A stretch of DNA of 64,000 nucleotides, taken from Candidatus Doudnabacteria bacterium. Its GTDB lineage: Bacteria > Patescibacteriota > Doudnabacteria > UBA920 > O2-02-FULL-48-8. Below the pieces are notes generated by a model. It had not been told where the DNA came from, did no database searches, and was given only the letters and a program-made list of their open reading frames with translations. Made by a program: the position numbers and the translations under genes. The stretch covers positions 10,349 to 74,348 of the forward strand of contig JBDTSL010000003.1 in the NCBI GenBank assembly GCA_039931165.1, written 5' to 3'. This document shows, piece by piece, positions 13,442 to 63,634 of the stretch; within the stretch, counting starts at the first letter, position 1; each line of letters opens with the position of its first letter.

Positions 13442-13452
13442 AGGCTCATACA

Positions 13453-13487: not shown

Positions 13488-13496
13488 CTATTAGAT

Positions 13497-14168
13497 ATGA
13501 TCACATTCTATACTAAATTAGCGAATTTATATGATAAAACCTATCTGAAAAAAGATTATCAGAAAGAAGTTTTATATTTGAAAAAATTTATTAAAGGTTC
13601 AGTTTTGGATGTTGGTTGTGGAACAGGTCGACATTTACAATATTTGAAAGATCACATACGAATTGGATTAGATAAAAGTTTGCAATTAATTAAACTTGCG
13701 AAACAAAATAATCCAGGGATTAAGTTTTTGCAAGGGGACATTGTTAATTTTAAAATTAATCAGAAATTTGATACGATTATCAGTTTGTTTACAGTGATTG
13801 CTTACCTAAATTCTAAGCAACTTGAGGAAGCTATTAATAATTTAGTCAGTCATTTGAACTCTAAAGGAATTTTAATTTTAGAACCTTTCGCTGAACCAAA
13901 AACCTTGTCATTGAAACCTTGGTTTAATTCCTATAATTCACCAACTTTAAAATTTACTCGATATGTGACTCTCAAAAAAATTAGAAATATAGCTAAACTA
14001 AATATTCAATGGTGGGTTAATGGAAATACTATTAAAGAAGTTCAACATTTATCATTATTTAAGCATAAACATATCATCAAATTATTAAATAAATATTGTG
14101 TTAAAGTCGAGTATTTGCCACCAACGCATTTATTTAGATACGGACTATTTGTGGCTAGAATTTCTTGA
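13497..14168 (+). CDS. Class I SAM-dependent methyltransferase (AT-rich)
   Basis: Motif I 'VLDVGCGTGRH' and motif II 'RIGLDKS'. The internal start 'MITFYTKL' was chosen because the longer ORF overlaps the upstream gene in a different frame. Confidence 0.7.
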   Translation: MITFYTKLANLYDKTYLKKDYQKEVLYLKKFIKGSVLDVGCGTGRHLQYLKDHIRIGLDKSLQLIKLAKQNNPGIKFLQGDIVNFKINQKFDTIISLFTVIAYLNSKQLEEAINNLVSHLNSKGILILEPFAEPKTLSLKPWFNSYNSPTLKFTRYVTLKKIRNIAKLNIQWWVNGNTIKEVQHLSLFKHKHIIKLLNKYCVKVEYLPPTHLFRYGLFVARIS

Positions 14169-14239: not shown

Positions 14240-14345
14240 TCGAACAGCGTAAAGGCAAGATCTGGGTCGAGTCGAAAGGGGAGGTAAAGGCGAGGTCAAC
14301 ACCACGGAATTCGACCTGACCAAGACCCAAACACCGGCTTGAAAT
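14240..14345 (+). pseudogene. Truncated duplicate of the 3' end of the histidine-kinase gene (direct repeat of 12602-12740 with a 35-bp internal deletion)
   Basis: 'CGAACAGCGTAAAGGCAAGATCTGGGTCGAGTCG' and 'AAAGGCGAGGTCAACACCACGGAATTCGACCTGACCAAGACCCAAACACCGGCTTGAAA' recur at 12602-12740. Confidence 0.8.
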
Positions 14346-14411
14346 ATATCGCCCGATTTGTTAGAATTGGTTAGCGTTCGGGCGTAGCTCAGCGGTAGAG
14401 CAGCTGACTGT

Positions 14412-14981
14412 GAACAAGTTCTTAAAGGCGGCATAAAGGTCTTATTTTATGCCAAAAGAGAAGAGAACATATTCCGACCGTTCTCAATACATTATCCAGG
14501 CGGTTACCAAGAGACGTAAAAAGCTCAGGGAAATGGCTAGGGTGTATAAAGGCGGTAAATGTATGATCTGTGGTTACGATCGCTGTCTAGGAGCGCTTGA
14601 TTTTCACCACATTGATCCTTCCAAGAAAAAGTTTGGAATATCCATGAACGGATTAACCAAATCTTGGGATAAGATCAAAGGCGAACTGGATAAGTGCATC
14701 TTAATTTGCGCGAATTGCCACAGAGAAATCCATGCAGGAATTACGCAGCTTCCTGGGGAAACCCAGGTTGAAAAACGAGGTGAACTCGGGGAAGCCCTGC
14801 ACCAGTAATCGGTACAGGGTAATCCCGAGCCAAGCTCCGACTTTTCAGTCGGAGAAGGTGTAGAGACTATCCCGCAAGGGAGTACTCCCAGCCCTTTCTT
14901 CGAAAGTGCTGGGCGGAAGCGCCTCGGACCCCTAATAGGGTTATGATATAGTCCATACTAAAGGCGACTTTAGATTAAATG
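14412..14981 (+). ncRNA. Group I self-splicing intron (570 nt) carrying an HNH endonuclease ORF
   Basis: Conserved core elements: R-like 'GAGACTA' (14863-14869) and S-like 'GATATAGTCC' (14944-14953), which form P7 (GACTA/TAGTC). Terminal G (omegaG) at 14981. Confidence 0.65.
14449..14808 (+). CDS. HNH homing endonuclease encoded within the group I intron
   Basis: 'CMICGYDRCLGALDFHHIDP...CILICANCHREIH' gives CxxC ... HH ... CxxCH, the HNH zinc-finger and catalytic motif. Confidence 0.8.
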   Translation: MPKEKRTYSDRSQYIIQAVTKRRKKLREMARVYKGGKCMICGYDRCLGALDFHHIDPSKKKFGISMNGLTKSWDKIKGELDKCILICANCHREIHAGITQLPGETQVEKRGELGEALHQ

Positions 14982-15025
14982 TAATCAGCGGGTCGCTGGT
15001 TCGAATCCAGCCGCCCGAGCCAAAT

Positions 15026-15056
15026 AAAAAAACCTGACTTCTGTCGGGTTTTTTTA
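15026..15056. terminator. Bidirectional terminator after the tRNA
   Basis: AAAAAAACCTGAC-ttct-GTCGGGTTTTTTT (one G-U pair in the stem). Confidence 0.7.
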
Positions 15057-15182
15057 TTTGTTTGACAGGCTGGATTCGAAGGGCAGAAGTGAGGCAAGAC
15101 CCCAGTCGCAGCCGAACGTCGACGGAAGCGAGGGCTCGCAGCTTCCGTCGCTGCCCCGGACATGAGCGCATCAGCGCGAATC

Positions 15183-15240
15183 CGAATCCAGCCGCCCGAG
15201 CCAAAAGAAAGAAACTGACTTCTGTCAGTTTCTTTCTTTT
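15183..15240 (+). repeat. Second copy of the tRNA 3' end (CGAATCCAGCCGCCCGAGCCAAA) plus a second terminator (AAAGAAAGAAACTGAC-ttct-GTCAGTTTCTTTCTTT): att-like scar
   Basis: A 21-nt exact repeat of 15002-15022. Both terminators share the core CTGACTTCTGTC. Inverted T-arm fragments GGCTGGATTCGAAGGG (15068-15082) and GGCGGATTCGAAGGG (15262-15273) follow each unit. Confidence 0.6.
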
Positions 15241-27469: not shown

Positions 27470-28348
27470 ATGAAAAAGCTATTCGTCATTGTTGTTGCCG
27501 CAGTCATTCTCGGCGGGCTTTACTTCGCTTATAAGCATGATCCCAGCCCAAATAAAGCTTCGGACACCATGGCCGGTATGAATATGGCCGGAATGATGAT
27601 GGGCGGGGATGCCAGCAGAAGATATACCGTAAGCTTCGCTACCAATCCGGCAAACCCGAAGCCAAATCAGGACACCCAGCTAAAGTTTAAAATATACGAC
27701 GCGGCCAGCGGTAATGAAGTCACGGATTACAGCGCGGTTATGACCAAACTGATGCATTTGGTCATCGTTAATTCAAACCTGGATTATTTCGAACACATTC
27801 ATCCGGCACAGAACGGTTCCGAGTTTACCGTCACCACCAGTTTTCCAAAAGCGGACAACTACCATCTTTACATTAATTTTCAGCCCAACAGCGCGACCGA
27901 ACAGCAGATCGGGTTTTCTCTGCCCGTAGGTGTTCCGGCATCCCACACTTCTTCGCACATTCCTTTAGACAGCACTCTTACAAAAACCTTCGGCAATTAC
28001 AAGGTTACTTTAAGCAGCGCAAGTTCACAATTTAACGCCAATGACATGAACAATATGGCGGAAGTTTTGAATTTTCATATTGTTGATGCCAAAACCGGCC
28101 AGCCCGTATCCGATCTGCAGCCTTATTTGGGGGCTTTCGGCCATTTGGTGATGATCAATGAGCAAACCTATAAATATGTGCATATTCACCCCGTAGCTTC
28201 GGACAATACGATGGCAGGCGGACCTGACGTGAAATTCTTGCCGGCAGCGCTTTTCGATAAGATCGAGCCGGGAATTTACCGGGTGTTTGCTCAGTTCCAG
28301 CACAACGATATGGTTTTTGTGGCTGACTTTACGATTAAGATAAATTAA
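27470..28348 (+). CDS. Secreted/anchored protein with an internal duplication carrying an H-x-H-P motif (possible metal-binding)
   Basis: Repeat 1 'MHLVIVNSNLDYFEHIHP...YHLYINFQPN' and repeat 2 'GHLVMINEQTYKYVHIHP...YRVFAQFQHN'. N-terminal TM segment. Confidence 0.45.
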   Translation: MKKLFVIVVAAVILGGLYFAYKHDPSPNKASDTMAGMNMAGMMMGGDASRRYTVSFATNPANPKPNQDTQLKFKIYDAASGNEVTDYSAVMTKLMHLVIVNSNLDYFEHIHPAQNGSEFTVTTSFPKADNYHLYINFQPNSATEQQIGFSLPVGVPASHTSSHIPLDSTLTKTFGNYKVTLSSASSQFNANDMNNMAEVLNFHIVDAKTGQPVSDLQPYLGAFGHLVMINEQTYKYVHIHPVASDNTMAGGPDVKFLPAALFDKIEPGIYRVFAQFQHNDMVFVADFTIKIN

Positions 28349-28360: not shown

Positions 28361-28430
28361 GTCGAATTTGCGAGGAGTCCCGACTTGTCGGGACGACGAA
28401 GCAATCTGCTCCTTAGAAATAGACTGCCAC
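28361..28430 (-). repeat. Family-A palindromic dispersed repeat, short intergenic copy (reverse orientation)
   Basis: Reverse complement: GTGGCAGTCTATTTC...AGATTGCTTCGTCGTCCCGACAAGTCGGGACTCCTCGCAAATTCG. Confidence 0.7.
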
Positions 28431-28486
28431 ACCCCGCCTTTGACTAATATTATTTTAATTTATGTTGGCGGGGCTCGCAGATTCGT

Positions 28487-39857: not shown

Positions 39858-40416
39858 CATTTGGGACCTTGGATTCTTGAACCTTTTTGGTTCTCGATCC
39901 TTGGTCCCTTTTGATTTGTGTTAATGTGGGAAGGATAGTACACGAACCAAGCCAGAATGGCCGTCGATGCATTTCGGCGAACGTACCGATGTAAAGCTTA
40001 ATATACGTCCGGCCAGCCCGACATGAACATTGTCGTTCTGGCGGGTACGGGCGGGGAACCTGGTAAATCTAAAATAAAAAGATTAGGCGAGAGAACCTAA
40101 TCTTTTTATATGTGTCGAAAGCCAGACTTGGAAAATTACGATTTTGGCAACTCCATGTCAGAGCTTTCAATTTGGTATTCCCTGTCCAGAACAAATCTTC
40201 GGTGGTTAAGCCTAATGATTGTGTTCCAGGCCGGAAATAAGCGAATGTAAAGAAGCGGTCTTTGTGTTTCAGTTGGTCGGGAGCAGAACTTGGCAGAAAT
40301 CAAAACCATCCTTCATATGTTAGGATCGTTTTGTTTATCTGACTTGATGCCCTTTTGCCATGTTGTCTTTTTTGTTTCTGCTGGAGTACTTACTCTATAG
40401 ACATTATAGCAGAAAA

Positions 40417-41138: not shown

Positions 41139-41253
41139 AGATTGCTTCGTCGCCGCCAAGATTAAGCCTAGGTTATTAAAGCGGCTCCTCGCAAATGCGC
41201 CTCTGCGAGTGACTGCCATATTAGAAGGGATTATTCTGGGCAGTCGCGTGGCA
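41139..41253 (+). repeat. Family-A repeat, long intergenic copy with extra inverted repeats
   Basis: AGATTGCTTCGTCGCCGCCAAGATTAAG...AAAGCGGCTCCTCGCAAATGCG, then CTCTGCGAG...GACTGCC...GGCAGTCGCGTGGCAGTCTATTTC. Confidence 0.7.
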
Positions 41254-41255
41254 GT

Positions 41256-41600
41256 CTATTTCATTGACGTTACTACCGCCTCAAAGGCTTTGGGATTGCG
41301 CACCGCCAGTTCCGCCAACATTTTTTTATTCAGGCCGACATTGTTTTTATGCAGCAATGCCTGCAGTCTGCTGTAGCTTAATCCTTGCTCGCGTGAAGCG
41401 GCATTGATGCGGATGGTCCAAAGTTTTTTCATGTCGCGCTTGCGCAGCCTGCGGTGGCCGTAAGCATAGGAGTCGGCGTGCAGCAGGGCTTCTTTGGCCG
41501 CGATCGCATTTGTGCGCCGGCGGTTGGTAAACCCTTTTGTTCTTTTTAAAACATATTTTCGGCGTTTGTGCGCGGCAACTCCGCGTTTAACTCTTGTCAT
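41256..41600 (-). CDS. rplT: 50S ribosomal protein L20
   Basis: 'MTRVKRGVAAHKRRKYVLKRTKGF...SYAYGHRRLRKRDMKKLWI'. Confidence 0.95.
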   Translation of the reverse strand: MTRVKRGVAAHKRRKYVLKRTKGFTNRRRTNAIAAKEALLHADSYAYGHRRLRKRDMKKLWTIRINAASREQGLSYSRLQALLHKNNVGLNKKMLAELAVRNPKAFEAVVTSMK

Positions 41601-43466: not shown

Positions 43467-45110
43467 GTGCTTATGTTAATGAGAGAAAAGATAGCCCAAC
43501 AAGTGCTTGCCGCAGTCGGGAGTTTAGGCATAAAACCAACTGATGAGCAGAAAGCAAAAATCACAGTCACATATCCGGATTTCAAGCTTGGAGATTATTC
43601 GTCCAACGCCGCTTTGATTTTGTCCAGAGAAGCCAAGCTGAAGCCCTTGGATTTAGCCAATAAAATAGTCGGGAAATTGGATAAGGGCATGTTCGAAAAA
43701 GCTGACGCAGTGGCACCCGGCTTTATTAATTTTAAACTTATACTACCCGAACTACAATCTACAACCTATAACCTACAACCTAAAACCGAGGGCAAGATAC
43801 TGCTCGAATATTTTCAGCCGAACATCGCCAAGCCGCTTCATATCGGCCACCTGGAAACCGCCATAATCGGCGACACGATAAAAAGACAGCTTCTGTATAT
43901 GGGCAAAACAGTTGAATCCGACACCCACATGGGTGATTGGGGCACGCAGTTTGGTTATTTGATCTTGGCGTATAAAAAATTCGGGGAAGTGAATGATAAA
44001 TTATACGCTCAGCTCAATGCCGATGATTCGCAAAAAGAAGCGGCTAAGCATGAGTTTGTCAAACTCGAACAAGGTGATGTTGAAAATCGGAAGATTTGGC
44101 AGCAACTGGTTGAAGCCAGCATGAAAGAATTCCTCAAGATCAACGATCTGATGGATATCTTGCGGTTTGAGCATCATTGGCCTGAAAGTTTTTATGAAGA
44201 CAAGATGCCGGTTGTTTTGGAGGACCTTAAGCAAAAGAAATTATTGGTGGAATCGCAAGGCGCGCAGATTGTGGATCTTGAACAAGAAAAACTAGGGGTC
44301 GCGATTATCGTTAAGTCTGACGGCGGCACAACTTATCTGCTTCGGGATCTGGCAACATTTTTGTTTGTTAAAAAAGAGGGATTTACGAAACATTTGTATG
44401 TCGTTGATAACCGGCAGAGCTTGCACTATAAACAACTTTTTTCGATTTTGAAATCTATGGGCAAGTTCGAAGAGAATGAAGGGATACATATTGATTATGG
44501 ATTTATCAGCTTTAAGGGTCAGGCTCTGTCTACGCGAAAGGGCAACATGGTTTTGGCCCAGGATGTGATCGCCCAGGCAGAAGAAAAAGTGTCGAAGATA
44601 ATCGCGGAAAAAAATCCGGATCTGAAAAACAAACAAGAAGTGATCAAGGCCGTGACTAAAGGAGCCTTGAAATATTTTATTCTCAAGCATAACCGCCACA
44701 GCGACATTGAATTTGACTGGAACGAGGTCCTGGATTTTGAAGGAGACAGCGGTCCGTACCTCCAGTATGCCTACGCGAGAATGGCCAGTATTTTGCGCAA
44801 GGCTGGGAATCTGGAATCTGGAATCTGGAATTTAGAATCAATCACTCCCACTGAAAGGCAAATACTTTTCCAGTCATCAATTTTGTCAGAGATTGTTTCC
44901 GACGCCACCAAAGATTATCTGCCGAATATCCTGGCCAATTATTTGTACGGTTTTGCAAAACTTCTGAATAAGTTTTACCACGAAAGTCCGGTGACCCAGG
45001 AAAAGGACGAAAAAGTCCGAAATTTCCGGTTGGCCTTGGTTTCAAACGCCAAAGCCACGCTGGGAAAAGGCTTGGATCTTTTGGGAATTAAAGCTTTGGA
45101 AGAAATGTAA
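43467..45110 (+). CDS. argS: Arginine--tRNA ligase
   Basis: 'KPLHIGHLETAIIGD' HIGH motif and a DALR-type C-terminus. Contains an in-frame heptamer-repeat segment 'TTYNLQP' (43751-43787). Confidence 0.9.
   Translation: MLMLMREKIAQQVLAAVGSLGIKPTDEQKAKITVTYPDFKLGDYSSNAALILSREAKLKPLDLANKIVGKLDKGMFEKADAVAPGFINFKLILPELQSTTYNLQPKTEGKILLEYFQPNIAKPLHIGHLETAIIGDTIKRQLLYMGKTVESDTHMGDWGTQFGYLILAYKKFGEVNDKLYAQLNADDSQKEAAKHEFVKLEQGDVENRKIWQQLVEASMKEFLKINDLMDILRFEHHWPESFYEDKMPVVLEDLKQKKLLVESQGAQIVDLEQEKLGVAIIVKSDGGTTYLLRDLATFLFVKKEGFTKHLYVVDNRQSLHYKQLFSILKSMGKFEENEGIHIDYGFISFKGQALSTRKGNMVLAQDVIAQAEEKVSKIIAEKNPDLKNKQEVIKAVTKGALKYFILKHNRHSDIEFDWNEVLDFEGDSGPYLQYAYARMASILRKAGNLESGIWNLESITPTERQILFQSSILSEIVSDATKDYLPNILANYLYGFAKLLNKFYHESPVTQEKDEKVRNFRLALVSNAKATLGKGLDLLGIKALEEM
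43751..43787. repeat. (ACAACCT)n heptamer repeat, family B, coding copy inside argS
   Basis: ACTACAATCTACAACCTATAACCTACAACCTAAAACC is the reverse complement of the intergenic copies at 52696-52777 and 63152-63196. Confidence 0.7.
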
Positions 45111-45129: not shown

Positions 45130-48100
45130 ATGGATAAAAAATTATTTAAGCCAATAGACGCGAAACCGGACTTCCCCAAACTTGAGGAAGAGGTCTTGAA
45201 GTTTTGGGAAGAGAATCAGATTTTTGAAAAATCTTTGGAACAGACGCAAGAAGGGAAGCCGTATACTTTTTATGATGGTCCGCCTTTTGCCACCGGCTTG
45301 CCGCACTATGGCCATATTCTCGCGTCAGTGGTAAAAGATCTGTTCCCGCGCTACCAGACCATGAAAGGCAGATTTGTCCGCCGCAGATGGGGCTGGGATA
45401 CCCACGGTTTGCCGATCGAAGAATTGGTGGAACGCAAGCTTGGGATATCGGGCAAAAAAGACATAGAGCGAATCGGAATAAAAAAATTCAACGAAACCTG
45501 CCGCTCCATGGTCCTGGAGTATGTGGCAGAATGGCGTAAAATGGTCCGTAGAGTCGCGCGCTGGGTCGATTTTGATAATTCCTACAAGACCATGGACCGG
45601 GATTATATGGAATCGGTCTGGTGGGCTTTCAAGAAAACCTATGATAAAGGATTGATTTACGAAGGACGGAGAGTGCTTCTTTACTGCCCGAGGTGCGAGA
45701 CGCCTATTTCCAACTTTGAAGTGGCCATGGACAATAGTTATAAAGAAGTCACGGAAGAAGCGGTGACGGTGAAGTTTAAAGTGAAAGGACAGGAGAATAC
45801 ATATTTGTTGGCTTGGACGACCACGCCGTGGACTTTGCCCGGTAATGTGGCTTTGGCAGTGGGGGAGGATATTGAATATGTAAAAGTAGAAAAGGGTGGG
45901 GAGTTTTATATTGTGGCCAAAGAAAGAGTAAACTCTGTCTTTGCGAGCGAAGCGAAGCAATCTCAAAACAAGAAAGAGATTGCTTCGTCGCCGCCCAAGA
46001 TAGTCCTTGAGAATAAAGCGGCTCCTCGCAAAGACGTAGAGGCAGAATTCAAAGGCTCGGAACTTGTCGGCCTCGAATACGAGCCCTTGTTTGACGTGCC
46101 GTCTGTGGAATCCGATAAATCCTTTAAAGTTTATGCTGCGGATTTTGTAAATACCGAAGACGGCACCGGCATCGTCCATACAGCCGTGGTTTACGGCGAG
46201 GATGACTATAATCTCGGCATGAAAGTGGGTTTGCCAGTAGTTCCGCTACTTGATGAAAAAGGAATTTTTAACGACAAATCGCCAGAATTAGTTCGGGGAA
46301 AATATTTCAAAGACTCGGAAAAATTCATTAAGAAAGACCTGGAAAGCAGGGGATTGCTGTTCGCAAGAAAAATGCATCAGCATTCGTACCCGCACTGCTG
46401 GCGATGCGGGACCACGCTTTTTTACAATGCCATTCCCGCCTGGTTTATAAATATCCAAAAGATAAAGAAAGGCTTGCTTAAAACCAATGAAAAGGAGATC
46501 AATTGGTTTCCCGACCATCTGAAGCATGGCCGCTATCAGAAATCCGTGGAAGCTGCTCCGGATTGGAACATTTCCCGTAACAGGTATTGGGGCAATCCGA
46601 TTCCGGTCTGGAAGTGCGAAGCGGGACACAATACAGTCGTCGGAAGCATCAAGGATTTGGGTTTGTCAAAAAATACTTTTTATTTCATGAGGCACGGGCG
46701 CGCGGAAAACAATCTTTTGGGGTTGGTTGATTCTTGGCCGGATATTAAACATTATCCTCTAGTTCCTGAAGGAATCGAACAAGCCGAAACAAGCGCCAAA
46801 AAAATTAAGGAACTAGGCGGACTGGATTTAATATTTTCTTCGGATATTACCAGAACCAAACAAACCGCAGAAGTTGTTGGAGAAATATTTAATGTCAAAG
46901 TAAATTTTGATGAAAGAATAAGAGAGGCAAATAGCGGTGATTATAACGGGAGGACTTACGAGGACGTTAATCGAGATTTTCCATTTGAGTCCAGATGGGC
47001 TAAAGCTCAAAATGGCGGAGAGACAAATATCGAAATTCAGAAACGAATGCTCGATTTTGTCAAAGAAATTAATGCTAAATACCGGGGCAAGAAGATTTTA
47101 ATCGTCGGTCATGGCGACCCTTTGTTTATTTTGCAAAAATATTTCGGTTCAGAACGAAGTTATCCAAAATACGGCCAGGTTTACGAAATGGAGGTCAGTA
47201 TTGTTGATCTTCATCGCCCTTATATCGACGATGTCGTTCTCAAATGCGAGAAATGCGGCCAAGACGCGCGCAGAACGCCGGAAATATTCGATTCCTGGGT
47301 TGAGGCAGGCTCCATGCCTTTTTCCGAATATCATTATCCCTTCGATCAAAAAGAAACTTTCGAATCCCGGTTCCCGGGCCAATTCGTAGTCGAGTACATC
47401 GCCCAAACCCGGGCTTGGTTTTATGTCATGCACGTCATCTCATATATTTTGTTTGGCAAGGCTCCATTTGAAAATGTCGTGACCACGGGCACGATCCAGG
47501 CCGAGGATGGATCAAAAATGAGCAAATCCAAAAATAATTTTCCGGACCCGTGGATCGTCATTGAAAAATACGGAGTTGATGCCTTGCGGTTCTATCTGAT
47601 GAATTCACCCGTAATGCTGGCGGAAAATTTGGATTTCAGCGAGCGTGAGCTGGCCGTGGTTTACCGCAAGAATATCCTGATTCTTTGGAATGTTTATAAT
47701 TATTTCGTCACTTACGCCAATGAAGCGGGCTGGGAGCCGAAGCCCCCGGGATATAAGCCGGTGCTGGATAATGTATTGGACAAATGGATCGTGGCGAAAA
47801 CCCAGGAGTTGATTCTAGAGGTTACTCTGGAGTTGGATAATTACAATACTGTTAAAGCAACCCGCGCCATTGAGGCTTATATCAACGAGCTTTCAACTTG
47901 GTACCTGCGCAGGAGCAGGGGACGGAAAGATTCTCACTTTTTCGGCACCTTGCGCCACGCGCTGACGGTCCTGGCCAAAGTTTCCGCGCCGGTCATGCCC
48001 TATATGTCCGAATTGGTTTATTCGAATTTGAATAAAAATCCCGAAACCATATCCGTGCATTTGGCCAAGTGGCCGGAAAAGAAGGAATTGGACCAAGAAC

Positions 48101-48570
48101 AAAAGAAAATATTGGAGCAGATGCAGCAGGTAAGAGATCTGGTAGAGCAGGGACATGCGCTTCGCAAAGCTTCCAATATCCGCTTGAGGCAGCCATTGGA
48201 GTCATTTACTTATGATAAACAGCTATTGGCAAAGGATTTCGAAGAGATTTTGGCGGATGAATTGAATGTAAAATCGGTTAAATTCGGAAGCATTCTAGAA
48301 TTTGATCTCAAAATTACGCCTAAACTGAAAAATGAAGGCTTGGCCCGGGAGCTTGAACGGACAGTGCAGGAAATGCGGAAAAAGTCGGGCTTTAAGGTTG
48401 GCGAAAAGGCCAATTTATCGTATGATACAGAGGACAAGGAATTAAAAGCCGCTTTTGAGCTGTTTGACACAAAAAAGACATATATAGGGAAGATATCTCA
48501 AGGAAAAGGCGGGGAAGATGCGGAAATTGACGGAAAAAAAGTGTTTCTGTCTTTGCGAGGAGGCCAGTAG
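45130..48570 (+). CDS. ileS: Isoleucine--tRNA ligase (type 2, HYGH variant of HIGH)
   Basis: 'PPFATGLPHYGH' and 'KMSKSKNN'. 1146 aa. Carries an in-frame family-A repeat insertion (45976-46035). The last 6 codons and the stop lie within another family-A copy (48551-48605). Confidence 0.9.
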   Translation: MDKKLFKPIDAKPDFPKLEEEVLKFWEENQIFEKSLEQTQEGKPYTFYDGPPFATGLPHYGHILASVVKDLFPRYQTMKGRFVRRRWGWDTHGLPIEELVERKLGISGKKDIERIGIKKFNETCRSMVLEYVAEWRKMVRRVARWVDFDNSYKTMDRDYMESVWWAFKKTYDKGLIYEGRRVLLYCPRCETPISNFEVAMDNSYKEVTEEAVTVKFKVKGQENTYLLAWTTTPWTLPGNVALAVGEDIEYVKVEKGGEFYIVAKERVNSVFASEAKQSQNKKEIASSPPKIVLENKAAPRKDVEAEFKGSELVGLEYEPLFDVPSVESDKSFKVYAADFVNTEDGTGIVHTAVVYGEDDYNLGMKVGLPVVPLLDEKGIFNDKSPELVRGKYFKDSEKFIKKDLESRGLLFARKMHQHSYPHCWRCGTTLFYNAIPAWFINIQKIKKGLLKTNEKEINWFPDHLKHGRYQKSVEAAPDWNISRNRYWGNPIPVWKCEAGHNTVVGSIKDLGLSKNTFYFMRHGRAENNLLGLVDSWPDIKHYPLVPEGIEQAETSAKKIKELGGLDLIFSSDITRTKQTAEVVGEIFNVKVNFDERIREANSGDYNGRTYEDVNRDFPFESRWAKAQNGGETNIEIQKRMLDFVKEINAKYRGKKILIVGHGDPLFILQKYFGSERSYPKYGQVYEMEVSIVDLHRPYIDDVVLKCEKCGQDARRTPEIFDSWVEAGSMPFSEYHYPFDQKETFESRFPGQFVVEYIAQTRAWFYVMHVISYILFGKAPFENVVTTGTIQAEDGSKMSKSKNNFPDPWIVIEKYGVDALRFYLMNSPVMLAENLDFSERELAVVYRKNILILWNVYNYFVTYANEAGWEPKPPGYKPVLDNVLDKWIVAKTQELILEVTLELDNYNTVKATRAIEAYINELSTWYLRRSRGRKDSHFFGTLRHALTVLAKVSAPVMPYMSELVYSNLNKNPETISVHLAKWPEKKELDQEQKKILEQMQQVRDLVEQGHALRKASNIRLRQPLESFTYDKQLLAKDFEEILADELNVKSVKFGSILEFDLKITPKLKNEGLARELERTVQEMRKKSGFKVGEKANLSYDTEDKELKAAFELFDTKKTYIGKISQGKGGEDAEIDGKKVFLSLRGGQ
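45976..46035 (+). repeat. Family-A repeat inserted in frame in ileS (encodes EIASSPPKIVLENKAAPRKD)
   Basis: GAGATTGCTTCGTCGCCGCCCAAGATAGTCCTTGAGAATAAAGCGGCTCCTCGCAAAGAC. Only this frame of the element is open. Confidence 0.75.
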
Positions 48571-48682
48571 AATTGGGTCAAATTGTCTGGCCGACGAAGC
48601 AATCTTTTTACTCAAAAAACGAGATTGCTTCGCGACCGCCCAAGATTAAGTCTCATCGATAAAGCGGTCGCTCGCAAAGACA
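48551..48682. repeat. Two family-A repeat copies in opposite orientation: 48551-48605 (reverse, overlapping the ileS stop) and 48621-48682 (forward), between ileS and recO
   Basis: CTTTGCGAGGAGGCC...CGACGAAGCAATCT, then GAGATTGCTTCGCGACCGCCCAAGATTAAG...AAAGCGGTCGCTCGCAAAGAC. Confidence 0.7.
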
Positions 48683-51094: not shown

Positions 51095-51095
51095 A

Positions 51096-51200
51096 AGAGT
51101 ATAAAGGGGAAAGTATAAAGTATAAAGGCCGAGCTCTAATGCTTGGCCTTTAAAATTTCCTATATACTTTATACTTGTCCCTTTATATTTTTTATGGCTT
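51096..51200. terminator. Extended palindromic bidirectional terminator
   Basis: Central hairpin AAAGGCC-gagctctaatgctt-GGCCTTT. It is flanked by inverted GTATAAAG-type repeats: GTATAAAGGGGAAAGTATAAAGTATAAAGG ... CCTATATACTTTATACTTGTCCCTTTATAT. Confidence 0.55.
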
Positions 51201-52340: not shown

Positions 52341-52695
52341 GGAAAGGGGGAGCAGGGTCCGCGAGTGGAGGGATTTGAAGGGATGAATTGTGAACTTGCT
52401 ATTCGATTTCCAGGATTCAGTGAACTTTTTGAGTGAGGAAATGAGAAGTAAAATAAGAACTCCTTATAAACACCAATCATGGCTTGCTTTATCAACTCAA
52501 CCACAGAAATGGAAATTTATTCCGTAAAAGCAAGCTAATCTTGGGCTAACTGTTCTTCATAAAGCAACAATAATCACAGCCCAAATCTTATCAAAATCAG
52601 CTTAATCGGTCAATACTTTTTGTGCTGTTTTCGGTGTATAAGTCGGAATAAAGCCTGTTTTAAAGGTTATTATTCATAGGCAATATCCACAGAAG

Positions 52696-52777
52696 ATAGG
52701 TTATAGGTGGTAGGTGATAGGTTATAGTAAAAAAAGCCATATTTTTCTACAACCTACAACCTAAAACCTATAACCTG
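52696..52777. repeat. Family-B heptamer repeats arranged as an inverted pair upstream of pcrA
   Basis: ATAGGTTATAGGTGGTAGGTGATAGGTTATAG, then a 20-nt spacer, then CTACAACCTACAACCTAAAACCTATAACCT. This can fold into a long imperfect hairpin. Confidence 0.65.
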
Positions 52778-52792
52778 TATACTGCTTAAGCT

Positions 52793-54803: not shown

Positions 54804-55751
54804 ATGACCAATGAAATTGAATTAAAAAATTATTTTCGCGCTCACGGACTTAAACCCAAAGATTATTTGGGACAGAATTTTTTGATTGACGAAGATGTGC
54901 TGAGAGAGATGATCGGGATCGCGGAATTAAAGCCGACCGATGTCGTGCTGGAGGTCGGTCCGGGTTTGGGTGTTTTGACAAAAGAACTCGCGGCCCGGTG
55001 CAGGGAAGTACTAGCGGTGGAAAAAGACAGCAAACTTTTCAAATTGCTTAAAGAAGAACTTATCGCATCTGCGAGCGGCCGATTAGTTGAGGATAAATCT
55101 CAGCGGCCGCGTGGCAGTCTAATCCTGGGTCAGATTGCTTCGTCGCCGCCAGAGATCACTCTTAGAGAAAAAAGCGGCTCCTCGCAAATTCGATTGTTCA
55201 ATGATGATATTTTAAAATTCCATGTTGCTGAAAATATCAAAGGCGAATACAAAGTCGTGGCCAATATCCCATATTATCTGACCTCAAAATTAATTCAGAA
55301 TTTTTTGGAAAATGTTCATCAACCGAAGTTACTCGTGATCATGATCCAGAAAGAAGTAGGGGAGCGGATAGTGGCTGGCCCGGGGAAACTTTCAATGCTC
55401 GGCATCTCCGTGCAGATTTACGCCGATGCGGAAATAGCGGCCCAGGTTCCCAGGCAAAGCTTCTGGCCGGTCCCGGAAGTTGATTCGGTGATCCTTAAAA
55501 TATTACCGCGAAATAAATATTCACAGATCACCGACCATAGATTATTCTTCCGCATCCTGAAAATGGCCTTTGCCGGAAAAAGAAAACAGATCGCCAATAG
55601 TTTAAGCAATGGATTGAATAAACCGAAGGAAGATATTACGAAGATGTTGCGCCTTGCAAGCATCGATCCTACCACAAGACCGCAAGATGTGAAAATAGAA
55701 CAGTGGATAGAGTTGTATAAGGTAGCTCAGATGGTTGTTGACGTAAAATAG
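54804..55751 (+). CDS. rsmA: 16S rRNA (adenine1518/1519-N6)-dimethyltransferase, with a ~45-aa repeat-derived insertion
   Basis: 'GQNFLIDEDVL...VLEVGPGLGVLTKEL' and 'VANIPYYLTS'. Confidence 0.9.
   Translation: MTNEIELKNYFRAHGLKPKDYLGQNFLIDEDVLREMIGIAELKPTDVVLEVGPGLGVLTKELAARCREVLAVEKDSKLFKLLKEELIASASGRLVEDKSQRPRGSLILGQIASSPPEITLREKSGSSQIRLFNDDILKFHVAENIKGEYKVVANIPYYLTSKLIQNFLENVHQPKLLVIMIQKEVGERIVAGPGKLSMLGISVQIYADAEIAAQVPRQSFWPVPEVDSVILKILPRNKYSQITDHRLFFRILKMAFAGKRKQIANSLSNGLNKPKEDITKMLRLASIDPTTRPQDVKIEQWIELYKVAQMVVDVK
55066..55192 (+). repeat. Family-A repeat inserted in frame in rsmA/ksgA (encodes ...GQIASSPPEITLREKSGSSQI...)
   Basis: TCTGCGAGCGGCC...GCGGCCGCGTGGCAGTCTAATCCTGGGTCAGATTGCTTCGTCGCCGCCAGAGATCACTCTTAGAGAAAAAAGCGGCTCCTCGCAAATTCG. 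Confidence 0.7.
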
Positions 55752-61506: not shown

Positions 61507-63150
61507 ATGAATAATAAATTTACACTAAATAAAACTGAGTTCAATGGCGATTTGGCCGATCCTAAAATCTTTGCTGAGATCGTTTTTCTTACTGATTTAG
61601 TTAAAGACAGTGAGTCAAAAGGGGATACATATAAAGTATTGCAAGAATTGGATCACTTGCTGAAAAAAAATACAGCCCAGCTCGGAGAATTGAAGCAAGG
61701 CTATGATAATTTGCTACTAGACCTGCGATTGACTTGTTTCCAACTGCTATCGGATGACGAAAAAGAGGTTATTTTGAAAAGCAAAATGTCTGTAGCTTAT
61801 AAAAATAACATTGATTTGACACGTTCCATCGCTTTAATGTTTATCCCGTATTTTACTCAGGATGATTTTGTAAAGTTAAACAGAATTACTCGATATTTGG
61901 AGGAAAATGACGAACTGATCGGGACGAATAATATTACAACATCGGATGGAAAGACAGTTGGTCCCTTAGTATCAAACTGGATTAAAGATTATAAATCAAA
62001 AGCTATAGAAGATAAAGGGACACTTAACATAGTTTCTTATTTTACCCAAAGCCCGAACTCCAAGGGATTAACCAAAGGACAACTCGATTTCCTAAAATAT
62101 ATATTGGATTTTTATGACTGGTTGAGATTCAAGGCTAGTAATACGTCGCTTATTCCTGAAGAAGAACCCGTAGCGCCGAGACCTTCTGCACCGCTGAGAA
62201 ATGTCACGCCAAACAGGACTACTATACCAGCCGTTTCTTCATCACCAGTTAGACCTCCGCAGCAGGCACAAGCAAAACCCGCCGCGCCTAGAGCTCTGCC
62301 AACCGAGTTTGAGAAGAAGCTGGCTCAAGTTTCGGCTCCTCCTCAAAGGCTCAACCCTGCTCCAAAGCCAGTTTTTCAGGAAGTTAAACCCGCCGCTCCA
62401 AAGCCACCGGCTACCGAATTTGAGAAAAAACTGGCCCAAGTTTCGGCTCCGTCTTCCCACGGCCAGGATTTGGAGATTATCCGCAAGCAAATGGAAAGTT
62501 CCAACCCGCCGGTTTCCGGCGTGCCTCGGTCGCTTACAAGGGGAGAAGGGCGAATTGAAAGCGCCAATTTGACGCCGGAAGAGATCAAGCGGGAAATCAA
62601 CACGCCGGAATTGCCACAATATAAAGAACCGGTGCGGCCTGTTGTTAAGCCAGTCTTGCCGCCAATTGTTGTGGCGCCGAAACCCGTGATATATAAACCT
62701 GTGGCGCCCAAGGCGGTTTCCGCGCCCGCACAAGTGGCGCCAATCCATAAAGAGATTGCTTCGTCGCCTCCAAAATTAACCCAAAGAACCGAGGCTCCTC
62801 GCAAAGACGGGTTAACTTCTTTAGATAAAATCAGCATTGTCGATGATTTAAAAAAGGTTGACCTGGAACTTTTCAGGCAAGCTCCGGTACAAAAACAGAT
62901 AGCGGATATAAAATACCAGGTATCAAGATTAGCTGCGGCCAATAAGCTTTTGCCTTACTATACGGTCAGCGCTTTTGAACAAAGCCCGCTATTCCAGGCC
63001 TACCTGCGGGTTGGTTTGGCGATAATCGAAGACAGCGCCACGGACCGGGCGGTGGCATTCAGAAACGCGGCCAACAAGGTAGGCAGCAATCTGACTTTGC
63101 AGGAGTTTGAAGCAATCGCGGATCTGCGGAAAGAAATAGAGCGGTTATAG
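61507..63150 (+). CDS. Hypothetical protein with Pro-rich tandem repeats (LPTEFEKKLAQVSAP, two copies)
   Basis: 547 aa. DNA direct repeat at 62298-62348 and 62410-62460. Also carries the family-A in-frame insert. Confidence 0.5.
   Translation: MNNKFTLNKTEFNGDLADPKIFAEIVFLTDLVKDSESKGDTYKVLQELDHLLKKNTAQLGELKQGYDNLLLDLRLTCFQLLSDDEKEVILKSKMSVAYKNNIDLTRSIALMFIPYFTQDDFVKLNRITRYLEENDELIGTNNITTSDGKTVGPLVSNWIKDYKSKAIEDKGTLNIVSYFTQSPNSKGLTKGQLDFLKYILDFYDWLRFKASNTSLIPEEEPVAPRPSAPLRNVTPNRTTIPAVSSSPVRPPQQAQAKPAAPRALPTEFEKKLAQVSAPPQRLNPAPKPVFQEVKPAAPKPPATEFEKKLAQVSAPSSHGQDLEIIRKQMESSNPPVSGVPRSLTRGEGRIESANLTPEEIKREINTPELPQYKEPVRPVVKPVLPPIVVAPKPVIYKPVAPKAVSAPAQVAPIHKEIASSPPKLTQRTEAPRKDGLTSLDKISIVDDLKKVDLELFRQAPVQKQIADIKYQVSRLAAANKLLPYYTVSAFEQSPLFQAYLRVGLAIIEDSATDRAVAFRNAANKVGSNLTLQEFEAIADLRKEIERL
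62752..62808 (+). repeat. Family-A repeat inserted in frame in the hypothetical gene 61507-63150 (encodes EIASSPPKLTQRTEAPRKD)
   Basis: GAGATTGCTTCGTCGCCTCCAAAATTAACCCAAAGAACCGAGGCTCCTCGCAAAGAC. Confidence 0.7.
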
Positions 63151-63151: not shown

Positions 63152-63196
63152 GAGGTTGTAGGTTGTAGGTTGTAGGTGGTAGGTTATAGGTTGTAG
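63152..63196. repeat. Family-B heptamer repeat (AGGTTGT)n, intergenic
   Basis: GAGGTTGTAGGTTGTAGGTTGTAGGTGGTAGGTTATAGGTTGTAG. Confidence 0.7.
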
Positions 63197-63282
63197 AATA
63201 AAAGGACCAGATGGTTCTTTTTTGATATAATGGATATCCACCCCAGACTTGATCTGGGGTCCATTTCAATTATTAATATCAA

Positions 63283-63567
63283 ATGGTTTTTTGTGTTTAT
63301 ATTATGGCTAGCAAAAGGAGAGGGACTTTATATATTGGTATGACCTCAGATTTGCCCAAAAGAGTTTACGAGCATAAAGATGATTTAGTTGAAGGATTTA
63401 CGAAAAAGTACGGTTGTCATACCTTGGTTTATTTTGAACCTATTGAAGATTTTGATTCGGCACTCAAAAGAGAAAAACAAACGAAAGCCTGGAATCGAAA
63501 CTGGAAAATAGAATTGATCGAGAAAACCAATCCGGCGTGGGAAGACCTGTCAGGTAAATTAATGTAG
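63283..63567 (+). CDS. GIY-YIG nuclease-domain protein
   Basis: 'VYIMASKRRGTLYIGMTSDLPKRVYEH'. Confidence 0.85.
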   Translation: MVFCVYIMASKRRGTLYIGMTSDLPKRVYEHKDDLVEGFTKKYGCHTLVYFEPIEDFDSALKREKQTKAWNRNWKIELIEKTNPAWEDLSGKLM

Positions 63568-63634
63568 CGGATCCCAGCTTTCGCTGGGATGGGAACCCTT
63601 GATAAGCTTTCGAGAGTTACGGAAAGTTTAAACT

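What the first reader, a model, noticed from the sequence alone, without database searches (positions are those of the whole stretch)
45976..46035. Dispersed palindromic repeat (family A) inserted in frame into essential genes: an RPE-like element outside Rickettsia
A ~60-120-bp element (AGATTGCTTCGTCGCCGCC...AAAGCGGCTCCTCGCAAAGAC) occurs at least 8 times in this window. Longer copies start with GCGTGGCAGTCTA.

Three copies lie inside ORFs (ileS, rsmA/ksgA and the 61507-63150 gene). Each is in the same element frame and adds the peptide 'EIASSPP(K/E)..(A/G)..RKD'. In the forward orientation that is the only frame of the element without a stop codon, so the genic copies look selected to preserve the host reading frame.

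Another copy (48551-48605, reverse) supplies the last six codons and the stop of ileS. The other copies are intergenic (28361-28430, 41139-41253, 48621-48682).

The best-documented precedent for a mobile palindromic element that adds peptide segments to housekeeping proteins is the Rickettsia palindromic element. Such behaviour is rarely described elsewhere.
Basis: partly seen in the sequence, partly recalled or inferred. Interest (0 to 1): 0.85.

Follow-up and report, generated by a model that had tools for sequence, protein, structure and literature searches.

The report
Hairpin repeats translated inside essential genes

Summary
The repeat is real: 11 units at 6 loci, far above chance. Each unit is 5'-AGATTGCTTCG, a variable GC-rich hairpin, then CTCGCAA(A/T)GAC-3'. 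Five loci are inverted doublets that fold into cruciforms.

Three loci lie in frame inside ileS, ksgA and a hypothetical gene. A fourth supplies the last six codons and stop of ileS. Orthologues show empty sites, and the nucleotide boxes are better conserved than the host genes around them. The 'single frame' claims hold only in part.

Read on the other strand, the unit is (C/T)GTC-(A/T)TTGCGAG…CGAAGCAAT-CT. That places it in the CGTC-tagged REP superfamily (Di Nocera 2013), which includes Rickettsia RPE-4 and RPE-6. Such hairpins were later shown to be targets of Ssn, a ~95-aa GIY-YIG single-strand DNA nuclease (Chenal 2025).

I found the Ssn link independently. In other genomes, ssn-like genes sit inside doublets of this same box family. 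The window itself encodes one at 63277-63564, flanked by hairpins.

The boxes occur in many phyla and in viral contigs, yet the published SRM search pattern misses them. Verdict: a known kind, as a new variant in a new phylum (Patescibacteria), unusually often intragenic.

The parts
45937..45963 (-). Short 27-nt unit (A3s), AGATTGCTTCG-CTTCG-CTCGCAAAGAC on the minus strand. It lies inside ileS and is translated as (S)VFASEAKQS. It is the left half of a head-to-head doublet.
   Evidence: An identical 27-mer sits at the orthologous site of L122.
45977..46035 (+). It lies inside ileS and is translated as EIASSPPKIVLENKAAPRKD. The inner stem is GCCGC/GCGGC, and a CGTC tag is read on the opposite strand at 46033-46036.
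   Evidence: The doublet 45933-46039 folds at -48 kcal/mol.
48549..48605 (-). Unit A5 (stem GGCCAG/CTGGCC). It supplies the last six codons (SLRGGQ) and the stop codon of ileS.
48622..48681 (+). Unit A6 (stem CGACCGC/GCGGTCG), partner of A5. Together they fill the ileS-recO spacer.
   Evidence: In relatives L121/L122/L123 the ileS stop and recO start abut or overlap.
55068..55120 (-). Unit B3 (diverged boxes AGACTGCCACG...CTCGCAGA on the minus strand; stem CGGCCG/CGGCCG). It lies inside ksgA and is translated as SASGRLVEDKSQRPRGS.
55132..55191 (+). Unit A7 inside ksgA, translated as QIASSPPEITLREKSGSSQI. Together with B3 it forms the whole ~40-aa KsgA insert.
   Evidence: The insert residues (about 91-125 of P0001) have pLDDT 46-66 in an otherwise confident model.
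62753..62808 (+). Single unit A8 (stem GCCTC/GAGGC) in the proline-rich linker of hypothetical protein 61507-63150, translated as EIASSPPKLTQRTEAPRKD.
   Evidence: Orthologues P0242, P0248 and P0255 carry EIASS...APR(K/N)D in the same linker; others lack it.
41139..41257 (.). Tail-to-tail doublet, A2 41139-41198(+) plus B2 41199-41257(-). It fills the spacer between rplT and map, and its end (TAGACTGC on the minus strand) supplies the rplT stop codon.
28364..28481 (.). Head-to-head doublet, A1 28364-28407(-) plus B1 28421-28481(+). It is intergenic and is the same B-A composite as in ksgA, in the opposite orientation.
63277..63564 (+). Gene for a ~95-aa single-domain GIY-YIG nuclease (Ssn-like), the candidate trans-acting partner of this repeat superfamily.
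   Evidence: PF01541, E=4e-15. It is 35-57% identical to GIY-YIG genes that sit inside doublets of this box family in other genomes.
63240..63260 (+). Perfect hairpin ACCCCAGA-CTTGA-TCTGGGGT followed by CCA, 16 nt upstream of the GIY-YIG ORF. It resembles a CGTC-1/NTS hairpin, but its tag is degenerate.
63571..63590 (-). Perfect hairpin ATCCCAGC-TTTC-GCTGGGAT, 6 nt after the GIY-YIG stop codon and inverted relative to the upstream hairpin. The arrangement is hairpin-ssn-hairpin.
45130..48570 (+). Host gene ileS (IleRS, 1146 aa), carrying the internal doublet at about aa 270-302 in the CP1/editing region and a REP-derived C-terminus.
54804..55751 (+). Host gene ksgA/rsmA (315 aa, versus about 277 aa in the closest orthologues).

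Best explanation
The element is a REP-type hairpin repeat of the CGTC-tagged superfamily. In the newer terminology it is an Ssn-related motif (SRM).

Anatomy. Each unit has an oriented pair of conserved boxes around a GC-rich hairpin of free sequence. Units mostly occur as inverted 'head-to-head' doublets of about 100-135 bp. As single strands these fold into a cruciform: the two 3' boxes pair with each other, the two 5' boxes pair with each other, and each unit contributes its own hairpin arm.

How it works. Such hairpins are the single-stranded-DNA binding and cleavage sites of small GIY-YIG nucleases of the Ssn family. ssn genes typically sit inside such a doublet, in an IS-like hairpin-ssn-hairpin module. 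The gene-less doublets are most simply read as non-autonomous relatives of that module.

Why it is in genes here. In this gene-dense Doudnabacteria (CPR) genome almost no neutral DNA is available. The copies that survive therefore fill operon spacers, gene ends, and tolerant loops or linkers of proteins. There they stay open in the host frame and are translated as extra peptide.

Shown here:
- repetition far above chance;
- box-hairpin-box anatomy with compensatory stem changes;
- filled versus empty orthologous sites;
- in-frame, stop-free state;
- placement of the KsgA insert in a low-confidence loop of an otherwise confident model;
- family features (tag, head-to-head dimers);
- physical linkage of this box family with GIY-YIG genes in other genomes, and presence of such a gene in the window.

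Inferred:
- that an Ssn enzyme of this organism recognises the A/B units;
- that the units are or were mobile, and by what route;
- that the inserts are actually translated and are neutral.
For: Repeat and anatomy:
- Searches give the copies and chance expectations.
- All units fold the same way. Doublets reach -42 to -65 kcal/mol on either strand.

Covariation, on 27 units whose loop centres I trimmed:
- 72% of cells are paired, against 57% in shuffles.
- The covariation score is 0.40, against 0.15 in shuffles (0 of 500 reach it) and 0.05-0.16 in slid controls.
- All 10 inner-stem pairs show changes on both sides.
- The outer pair is U-A in A units and C-G in B units.

Orthologous sites:
- ksgA is empty in L126. 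In L125 (60% aa identity) it holds the same B-A composite with nearly identical boxes but compensated stems (CGGCCG/CGGCCG versus CGACCGC/GCGGTCG).
- The ileS site is empty in L121. L122 has a doublet with an identical 27-mer. L123 has diverged boxes. L178 has a CGTC-like head-to-head dimer with a TGTC tag and CCA tail (TGTC-ATCCCCGA...ATCGGTGAT-CCA).
- The ileS/recO junction is filled only in the window.

Structure: KsgA model pLDDT is 84.8 overall, and the insert scores 46-66.

Spread: the exact boxes occur in at least 120 stretches of species-representative genomes across many phyla, where about 4-17 are expected by chance (my estimate), and in at least 120 viral contigs.
- 89% of units carry the YGTC tag.
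- 72 of 153 units have a head-to-head partner, against 11 tail-to-tail.

GIY-YIG linkage: 12 GIY-YIG ORFs were found in 2.3 Mb of loci chosen by the element. Eight of them (seven with this box family, L079 with a related one) have units within about 55 nt, on both sides where the locus allows it. The window's own gene lies between two hairpins of a different type. Two loci chosen by the protein instead are also embedded in such units.

Literature:
- PMC3733652: definition of CGTC REPs, equivalence with RPE-4/-6, intragenic REPs, no transposase found.
- PMC3767692: ATGAC motif in RPE-4/6/7, and different RPE groups at the same site in orthologues.
- PMC11893778: Ssn cleaves ssDNA next to NTS/SRM hairpins; NTS-ssnA-NTS architecture.
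Against: - The published degenerate SRM pattern finds 0 sites in the window and does not match this box family.
- The strict CGTC-family features are not met: an 8-9 bp uninterrupted stem, a 4-5 nt loop and a CCA tail.
- The window's own ssn-like gene is flanked by a different hairpin type (CCCAG stems), not by A/B units. Its cognate relationship to the A/B units is therefore unproven.
- Copies within the genome differ strongly in their loops, so there is no sign of a recent burst.
- No target-site duplication or clean insertion boundary could be defined.
- Occupancy of the same sites in distant orthologues could mean ancient insertion plus constraint rather than ongoing mobility.
- Nothing here shows transcription, translation or cleavage.
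Confidence: 0.72

Rival explanations
1. The hairpins are kept mainly because they serve the host as RNA or DNA structure, for example as mRNA stabilisers, processing sites or terminators between cistrons, or as marks that modulate uptake and recombination of single-stranded DNA. On this view they are not selfish or mobile DNA, and the intragenic copies are tolerated by-products.
For: - Three doublets lie exactly in spacers between co-directional genes (ileS-recO, rplT-map, 27470-28348 / 28487).
- Boxes and stems are conserved over deep divergence while loops drift, as expected under purifying selection.
- PMC3733652 argues that many REPs act as RNA elements.
- PMC11893778 shows that NTS/Ssn modulates transformation in Neisseria.
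Against: - Ssn acts on ssDNA only, not on RNA (PMC11893778).
- Doublets fold about equally well on both strands, and G-U pairs are rare. This gives no sign of a transcript-specific structure.
- Presence or absence is patchy among equally close relatives.
- Copies inside protein-coding loops have no obvious RNA role.
- The two views are not mutually exclusive.
Confidence: 0.18
2. The GIY-YIG gene is a free-standing homing-type endonuclease gene that targets pre-existing doublets as landing sites. The repeats would then spread by an unrelated route, such as another enzyme, recombination or gene conversion.
For: - The gene always occupies the spacer of a doublet.
- IS elements that target REPs are known (PMC1525189, title and abstract only).
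- Most doublets carry no gene.
- The window's ssn-like gene is flanked by a different hairpin type from the dispersed A/B units.
Against: - Biochemistry shows that Ssn recognises the hairpin itself and cuts beside it (PMC11893778). This fits an enzyme-plus-ends relationship.
- Enzyme and flanking-motif variants co-vary between genomes (PMC11893778).
Confidence: 0.07
3. The segments are ordinary lineage-specific protein sequence or low-complexity linkers, the nucleotide similarity is convergent, or they are assembly artefacts.
For: - CPR proteins often carry lineage-specific insertions.
- One host region (61507-63150) is a low-complexity proline-rich linker.
Against: - Boxes of 11 nt are identical between genic and intergenic copies, at odds far beyond chance.
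- The same boxes occur in many phyla.
- An identical KsgA protein with the insert is encoded on a separately assembled contig, L124.
- Orthologous inserts occur in other assemblies.
Confidence: 0.02
4. The intragenic copies are removed from the mRNA or bypassed by the ribosome (intron-like or hop-like), so they add no peptide.
For: - They form very stable local structures.
- Translational bypass of inserted hairpin elements is known in other systems (my own knowledge).
Against: - About 94 inserted codons across three genes are stop-free in the host frame, and each insert keeps the downstream host reading frame open. By my rough estimate the chance of this is about 0.005 if there were no constraint.
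- Intergenic copies do carry stops in most frames.
- No known ribozyme or intron family matches.
Confidence: 0.03

Closest known systems
CGTC-tagged REP superfamily (Di Nocera, De Gregorio and Rocco 2013, PMC3733652)
   Same: - Unpaired terminal CGTC/TGTC tag.
- In the canonical form of the family, a stem that starts with A-T pairs.
- Predominance of head-to-head dimers with the tags outside.
- Location at gene ends and between co-directional genes.
- Occasional in-frame intragenic copies, including in tRNA synthetase genes.
- No adjacent transposase.
   Different: - The outer stem is only 4-5 bp. It is followed by conserved unpaired bases and then a second stem of free sequence with a loop of up to about 30 nt. 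The described families have an 8-9 bp stem and a 4-5 nt loop.
- The tail is CT(C), not CCA.
- The host phylum (Patescibacteria) is not among the five surveyed.
- The sequence was not found in that paper's supplementary files.
Ssn-related motifs (NTS/SRM) and Ssn GIY-YIG ssDNA endonucleases (Chenal et al. 2025, PMC11893778)
   Same: - Oriented hairpin repeat with a YGTC upstream flank.
- Hundreds of dispersed copies in some genomes.
- A ~95-aa single-domain GIY-YIG gene flanked on both sides by the motif. I saw this for the present box family in L071, L028, L132, L172, L159 and L108, and in the window with another hairpin type.
   Different: - The published degenerate SRM pattern does not match these units.
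- NTS are rarely intragenic (2% in N. meningitidis), whereas 6 of 11 units here lie fully inside coding sequence.
- No biochemistry exists for this variant.
- CPR bacteria are not mentioned in the paper.
[quoted passage not shown]
   Same: - In-frame insertion into housekeeping genes, IleRS among them.
- Solvent-exposed positions.
- Orthologues carry different subfamilies at the same site.
- The ATGAC/GTCAT motif is characteristic.
- RPE-4 and RPE-6 are classed as CGTC REPs.
- The exact boxes of this family also occur in a Rickettsiaceae genome (Candidatus Tisiphia, L080).
   Different: - Different host phylum.
- The window variant has AAGAC instead of ATGAC.
- I could not compare the units directly with RPE consensus sequences.
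- RPE-1/2/3, the classic protein-coding RPEs, are a different and longer kind.
REPIN-RAYT systems and E. coli BIMEs
   Same: Inverted REP doublets that fold into long hairpins or cruciforms, understood as non-autonomous partners of a single-copy nuclease or transposase gene that the same repeats flank.
   Different: - Those carry the GTAG tag and use an HUH tyrosine transposase (RAYT).
- A RAYT search here found one unlinked hit in 2.3 Mb and none in the window.
- The linked gene here is a GIY-YIG nuclease.

Membership tests
CGTC-tagged REP superfamily | Unpaired terminal CGTC motif (TGTC or CCTC variants allowed) at one end of the palindrome | tested here: met
   - CGTC at A4 and A8; TGTC at A3s, A5 and A6.
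- Across 153 units from other genomes, the base after GAC is A or G in 136 (89%), giving TGTC or CGTC.
- A1, A2 and A7, the A units paired with a B unit, have (C)GAATTTGCGAG or GCATTTGCGAG instead.
CGTC-tagged REP superfamily | Stem of 8-9 bp with complementary A-T residues at positions 1 and 2, and a loop of 4-5 nt | tested here: not met
   - The canonical family has ATTGC/GCAAT (5 bp). The window variant has TTGC/GCAA (4 bp).
- This is followed by unpaired TTCG / CTC and then a second stem of variable sequence with loops of up to about 30 nt.
- L178, at the same ileS site, does have the classical form.
CGTC-tagged REP superfamily | Short unpaired tail (consensus CCA) at the end opposite the tag | tested here: not met
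   The tail is CT(C/N) in the A family. CCA is seen only in L178 and next to the window's ssn-flanking hairpin.
CGTC-tagged REP superfamily | Mostly head-to-head dimers (tags outside), with tail-to-tail dimers rare | tested here: met
   In the window, 4 of 5 doublets are head-to-head and 1 is tail-to-tail. In other genomes, 72 units have a head-to-head partner against 11 tail-to-tail.
Ssn-related motif (SRM) / Ssn system | Match to the published degenerate SRM sequence HGTCWYN(0-2)YYVSBRHN(0-5)WNVSBRGN(0-2)RNCYNB | tested here: not met
   0 matches in the window on both strands. No match to the 27-nt and 33-nt canonical forms, although the pattern does match the NTS control.
Ssn-related motif (SRM) / Ssn system | A single-domain GIY-YIG (cd10448-like, ~95 aa) gene flanked by the motif on both sides | tested here: met
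   - L172, L159, L071, L028, L132 and L108 have units of this box family on both sides of the gene.
- L079 has a related box family on both sides. In L038 only the upstream side is visible.
- The window gene 63277-63564 lies between two perfect hairpins of another subtype.
- Assignment to cd10448 itself was not testable.
Ssn-related motif (SRM) / Ssn system | Strand-specific binding and cleavage of the hairpin as ssDNA by the cognate Ssn | not testable with these tools
   This needs biochemistry. It has been shown only for Neisseria and Wolbachia enzymes (PMC11893778).
Rickettsia palindromic elements (RPE) | Palindromic repeat inserted in frame in ORFs at surface-exposed positions | tested here: met
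   - Three genes carry stop-free in-frame copies.
- The KsgA insert is a low-pLDDT excursion between helix 76-89 and strand 128-132.
- The IleRS insert lies in a variable stretch that is gapped in most orthologues.
Rickettsia palindromic elements (RPE) | Sequence membership in one of the RPE families of the genus Rickettsia | not tested
- Indirect links only: RPE-4 and RPE-6 are CGTC REPs (PMC3733652); the ATGAC motif (PMC3767692); and the boxes occur in Candidatus Tisiphia (L080).
REPIN-RAYT | GTAG-type REP doublets associated with a REP-flanked HUH tyrosine transposase gene | tested here: not met
   - There is no GTAG tag.
- A jackhmmer search with E. coli RayT against all ORFs of at least 80 aa in the window and the loci held at that point gave one hit. 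It lies 2.5 kb from an element and is not flanked by it.
MITE | Terminal inverted repeats plus a target-site duplication, derived from an IS with matching ends | tested here: inconclusive
   - The doublets have inverted ends, and gene-carrying versions exist.
- No direct target duplication could be recognised at filled versus empty sites, because the flanks have diverged too far.
Rfam structured RNA families | Match to a curated covariance model | tested here: not met
   At gathering score there is no hit in the window apart from tmRNA, and none in four element-rich loci. At E<=1 there is no hit on the element regions.

The most novel reading that the evidence does not exclude
The gene-less head-to-head doublets are non-autonomous derivatives of a minimal mobile element that consists only of a ~95-aa Ssn-type GIY-YIG ssDNA nuclease gene between two hairpin ends.

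On this reading Ssn is the long-missing mobilising enzyme of CGTC REPs, and hence of RPE-4/6/7-type protein-coding palindromes. The ATTGCGAG...CGAAGCAAT box family is a pan-bacterial, phage-borne lineage of it that published SRM searches miss. In CPR genomes it has been inserting into essential genes.
Probability: 0.25. Interest if true: 0.75.

Novelty: new variant of a known kind. Interest (0 to 1): 0.45.

Why it matters
- It links three literatures that are usually kept apart: the protein-coding palindromes of Rickettsia, the CGTC-tagged REPs, and the recently discovered Ssn single-strand DNA nucleases. It extends them to the Candidate Phyla Radiation.
- Gene density in these tiny genomes seems to push the repeats into essential proteins such as IleRS and KsgA.
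- One box family, conserved almost to the base across many phyla and in viral contigs, escapes the published SRM search pattern. Current censuses of Ssn targets are therefore likely incomplete.
- Annotators should know that peptides such as EIASS...APRKD, SLRG...DEAIS and VFASEAKQS in CPR proteins are repeat-derived.
- Contigs may also break at these sites. This is a guess based on a single contig (L124) that starts 81 nt upstream of ksgA.

Tried and rejected
- **Literature string searches.** Searches for the box sequences and for the derived peptides found nothing relevant.
- **Rfam.** Gathering and E<=1 thresholds gave nothing but tmRNA.
- **Extending the window.** Looking up window proteins failed for IleRS and two other ORFs. 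KsgA returned only a 3.3-kb contig. No whole-genome census was therefore possible.
- **RAYT/HUH transposase hypothesis.** Rejected: one unlinked hit in 2.3 Mb and none in the window. Pfam on 20 ORFs, 10 of them next to element loci, shows no transposase.
- **Integron attC, IS200/IS605 ends, group II intron domains, CRISPR repeats.** Considered from memory and dropped, because the box sequences and the doublet organisation do not fit.
- **Target-site duplication.** None could be recognised.
- **Published SRM pattern.** No match.
- **Strand preference from folding energies.** Single units fold better on the YGTC-first strand, but doublets fold equally well on both. This does not decide between RNA and DNA.
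- **Heptamer run inside argS (43737-43787).** I checked whether it is a similar insertion. The orthologue L122 has the same peptide and there is no length difference, so I left it aside.
- **Metagenome contigs carrying the long-form unit.** None is syntenic with the window.


Full report

Yes. The sequence at 45976-46035 reads as quoted. The 19-nt left end occurs 6 times at up to 3 mismatches, against 0.01 expected. The 21-nt right end occurs 5 times, against 0.00 expected.

I then scanned for the two ends as a pair. This gives eight 'A' units: AGATTGCTTCG, a centre, then CTCGCAA(A/T)...
- 28364-28407(-)
- 41139-41198(+)
- 45937-45963(-)
- 45977-46035(+)
- 48549-48605(-)
- 48622-48681(+)
- 55132-55191(+)
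- 62753-62808(+)

Read on the opposite strand, B is TAGACTGCCACG, a hairpin, then CTCGCAGA. That makes it a diverged A-type unit in inverse orientation. B units lie at 28421-28481, 41199-41257 and 55068-55120.

In total there are 11 units at 6 loci. Five loci are inverted doublets and one (62753) is a single unit.

**2. Anatomy**

Every unit folds the same way:
- a 4-bp outer stem, TTGC/GCAA;
- conserved unpaired bases, TTCG on one side and CTC on the other;
- an inner GC-rich stem of 5-8 bp whose sequence differs from copy to copy (GCCGC/GCGGC, GTCCCGAC/GTCGGGAC, GGCCAG/CTGGCC, CGACCGC/GCGGTCG, CCCCGCC/GGCGGGG, GACTGCC/GGCAGTC, CGGCCG/CGGCCG, GCCTC/GAGGC);
- a loop of up to about 30 nt.

I tested covariation on 27 units, 10 from the window, 3 from orthologous sites and 14 from other genomes. 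I trimmed each unit to its boxes plus 10 nt on either side of the centre.
- 72% of cells pair, against 57% in shuffles.
- The covariation score is 0.40, against 0.15 in shuffles (0 of 500 shuffles reach it) and 0.05-0.16 when partners are slid.
- All ten inner-stem pairs show changes on both sides.
- The outermost pair is U-A in A units and C-G in B units.

In doublets the two 3' boxes pair with each other and the two 5' boxes pair with each other. The result is a cruciform or cloverleaf of -42 to -65 kcal/mol on either strand.

**3. The genic copies**

The organism is a Candidatus Doudnabacteria (Patescibacteria/CPR) bacterium.

*KsgA.* The protein is 315 aa, while the closest orthologues have about 277 aa and lack the segment.
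- The whole ~40-aa insert is one B-A doublet.
- The syntenic contig L126 shows the empty site.
- L125, whose KsgA is only 60% identical, carries the same B-A composite at the same place. Its boxes are nearly identical but its stems are compensated.
- An AlphaFold model of KsgA is confident overall (pLDDT 84.8). The insert (pLDDT 46-66) appears as an excursion between a helix and the next strand.

*IleRS.* A short reverse unit and a long forward unit (45937-46035) together add about 33 residues in the CP1/editing region.
- Many orthologues have a gap there.
- L121 shows the short allele.
- L122 (71% identity) has a doublet with an identical 27-mer and a forward unit with only a 10-nt centre.
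- L123 has a doublet with diverged, mutually matching boxes.
- L178 has a CGTC-like dimer with a TGTC tag and CCA tail.

*The ileS 3' end.* Three relatives have an abutting or overlapping ileS stop and recO start. The window has a 130-nt spacer that is the doublet 48549-48681, and it supplies SLRGGQ plus the stop codon.

*The third host.* This is a Doudnabacteria-specific hypothetical protein. The unit lies in its variable proline-rich linker. Three orthologues of 30-43% identity carry EIASS...APR(K/N)D in the same linker, and others do not.

*Independent assembly.* A separately assembled contig (L124) encodes the identical KsgA with the insert.

**4. The frame claims**

All three forward genic units read the 5' box as (E/Q)IASSPP. 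The ksgA unit, however, is 60 nt long, so its 3' half is in another frame (SGSSQIR). The statement that only one forward frame is open holds for the ileS copy alone.

I also looked at 53 long-form units from metagenomes. Twelve lie in stop-free frames of at least 150 codons, in at least five different orientation/frame combinations. I did not verify these frames as real genes.

The pattern is best read as survivorship. An insertion in an essential gene is seen only if it is open in the host frame. About 94 inserted codons without a stop, and host reading frames that stay open downstream of every insert, argue that the inserts are translated.

**5. What family is it?**

It returned 120 stretches with 153 units, where I estimate about 4-17 by chance. 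The hits span many phyla, including cultured Pedobacter, Chryseobacterium, Hymenobacter, Microvirga and Sporomusa, and a Rickettsiaceae symbiont. A scan of viral contigs also hit its limit.
- The commonest form is a 27-mer, AGATTGCTTCG-CTTCG-CTCGCAATGAC.
- Longer forms have small perfect hairpins in the centre.

Rfam has no matching family.

Read on the opposite strand, the unit is (C/T)GTC-(A/T)TTGCGAG...CGAAGCAAT-CT. Di Nocera et al. (PMC3733652) defined a CGTC-tagged REP superfamily with these features:
- a CGTC or TGTC tag;
- a stem starting with A-T pairs;
- mostly head-to-head dimers;
- equivalence of CGTC-1 and CGTC-4 with RPE-6 and RPE-4 in Rickettsia conorii;
- intragenic copies in several species, tRNA synthetase genes included;
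- no associated transposase.

The tag is met here: 89% YGTC over 153 units. So is the dimer rule: 4 of 5 doublets in the window, and 72 versus 11 units elsewhere. The 8-9 bp stem, the 4-5 nt loop and the CCA tail are not met.

The Rickettsia japonica genome paper (PMC3767692) reports two further parallels. ATGAC is the hallmark of RPE-4/6/7. Orthologues carry different RPE groups at the same site, which is the pattern I see in the Doudnabacteria IleRS.

**6. The enzyme**

A search with E. coli RayT found one unlinked hit in 2.3 Mb and none in the window.

I then clustered all ORFs lying within 2 kb of the units in 291 loci. This brought out a family of ~95-aa GIY-YIG proteins.
- Eight of 12 such genes have units beside them, within about 55 nt: a YGTC-first unit upstream and an inverted unit directly after the stop codon. 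Where both sides can be read, the gene sits inside a doublet.
- Six of these have this box family on both sides (L172, L159, L071 Bacillota, L028 Planctomycetota, L132 with Doudnabacteria-like long loops, L108). L038 (Pedobacter) shows only the upstream side.
- The eighth (L079, Omnitrophota) has a related box family.
- Two loci chosen by the protein rather than by the repeat are also embedded in such units.

This association turned out to be published. Chenal et al. 2025 (PMC11893778) showed the following:
- Ssn, a single-domain GIY-YIG family, binds the oriented hairpin repeat NTS (CGTCATTCCCGCGMAVGCGGGAATCYRG) as single-stranded DNA, on one strand only.
- It cuts a few nucleotides upstream.
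- 'Ssn-related motifs' flank most ssn genes in an IS-like arrangement.
- In Neisseria the system modulates transformation.

The window itself encodes such a protein at 63277-63564 (PF01541, E=4e-15). It lies between two perfect hairpins, 63240-63260 and 63571-63590. Those hairpins are of a different subtype from the A/B units.

The published degenerate SRM pattern finds nothing in the window and does not match this box family.

**7. Conclusion**

Its interpretation, an RPE-like palindromic element translated inside housekeeping genes, is supported, and the relationship to some RPEs is probably one of homology.

The kind of element, its dimer organisation, its occasional in-frame location and its cognate nuclease family are all already described.

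What is new here:
- the host phylum;
- the split-box architecture with a free inner hairpin;
- the very broad distribution of one box family that current SRM searches miss;
- the high share of intragenic copies (6 of 11 units fully inside coding sequence, plus one gene end).

What remains open:
- whether and how the units move;
- whether this organism's Ssn recognises them;
- whether the peptides are made.

Noticed in passing
window 46678-47211 (IleRS aa 517-694): The IleRS carries a complete histidine-phosphatase domain (His_Phos_1, E=7e-33) inserted in the synthetase. About 100 of the 120 best Patescibacteria IleRS hits (Doudna-, Lipton- and Saccharibacteria, Minisyncoccia) have the same fusion. 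A minority of Doudnabacteria IleRS proteins (about 907-1019 aa) lack it.
   Followed up: partly
window 52690-52784, 63152-63204, 51095-51192, 43737-43787: A second repeat class is built from tandem heptamers (GGTTGTA/GGTTATA, and AGTATAA). These form long palindromes at gene ends. A related heptamer run lies inside argS and encodes LQSTTYNLQPKT. The L122 orthologue has the same peptide, so it is not a recent insertion.
   Followed up: partly
window 12602-12746 and 14240-14350: The 3' end of the histidine-kinase gene (11059-12738) is duplicated at 97% identity 1.6 kb downstream. The copies bracket an unknown ORF and a SAM methyltransferase (13392-14168), and a weak-scoring HNH-like ORF (14449-14808) follows. 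It looks like a small cassette inserted with duplication of its target.
   Followed up: no
window 15002-15059 and 15183-15240: Two copies of a tRNA 3'-end-like fragment (TTCGAATCCAGCCGCCCGAGCCA), each followed by a terminator-like hairpin. No tRNA gene is called in the window. They may be att-site remnants.
   Followed up: no
window 39860-40416: A 550-nt stretch without a long ORF in an otherwise dense genome. Positions 40048-40254 are 80% identical to an unrelated metagenome contig (L177 1657-1859). There is no Rfam match at E<=1.
   Followed up: partly
window 2076-2179, 2784-2887, 12773-12876: A 104-nt direct repeat in three copies (84% and 68% identical to the first), unrelated to the finding.
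   Followed up: no
L280 2328-3800 and other viral loci L180-L299: Many IMG/VR contigs that carry the boxes belong to one group of related phages that share sets of homologous large ORFs, which I did not identify. One 491-residue ORF in L280, of unidentified function, contains a repeat-derived peptide in frame (…SLRGAQRRSNL…), so in-frame copies may also occur in phage genes.
   Followed up: no
L005, L078, L089 (Chloroflexus); L067 (Caldatribacterium): In these genomes the same box family forms tandem arrays with a period of about 50-90 nt, instead of inverted doublets.
   Followed up: no
L125 (P0004) and alignment A1: Other Doudnabacteria KsgA proteins carry further inserts at other positions, such as SAKGGSASGGK and SASDRPVSPGASQGGPSRDGEAARP. 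Some of these recur between orthologues, which suggests additional repeat families that are translated in CPR proteins.
   Followed up: no
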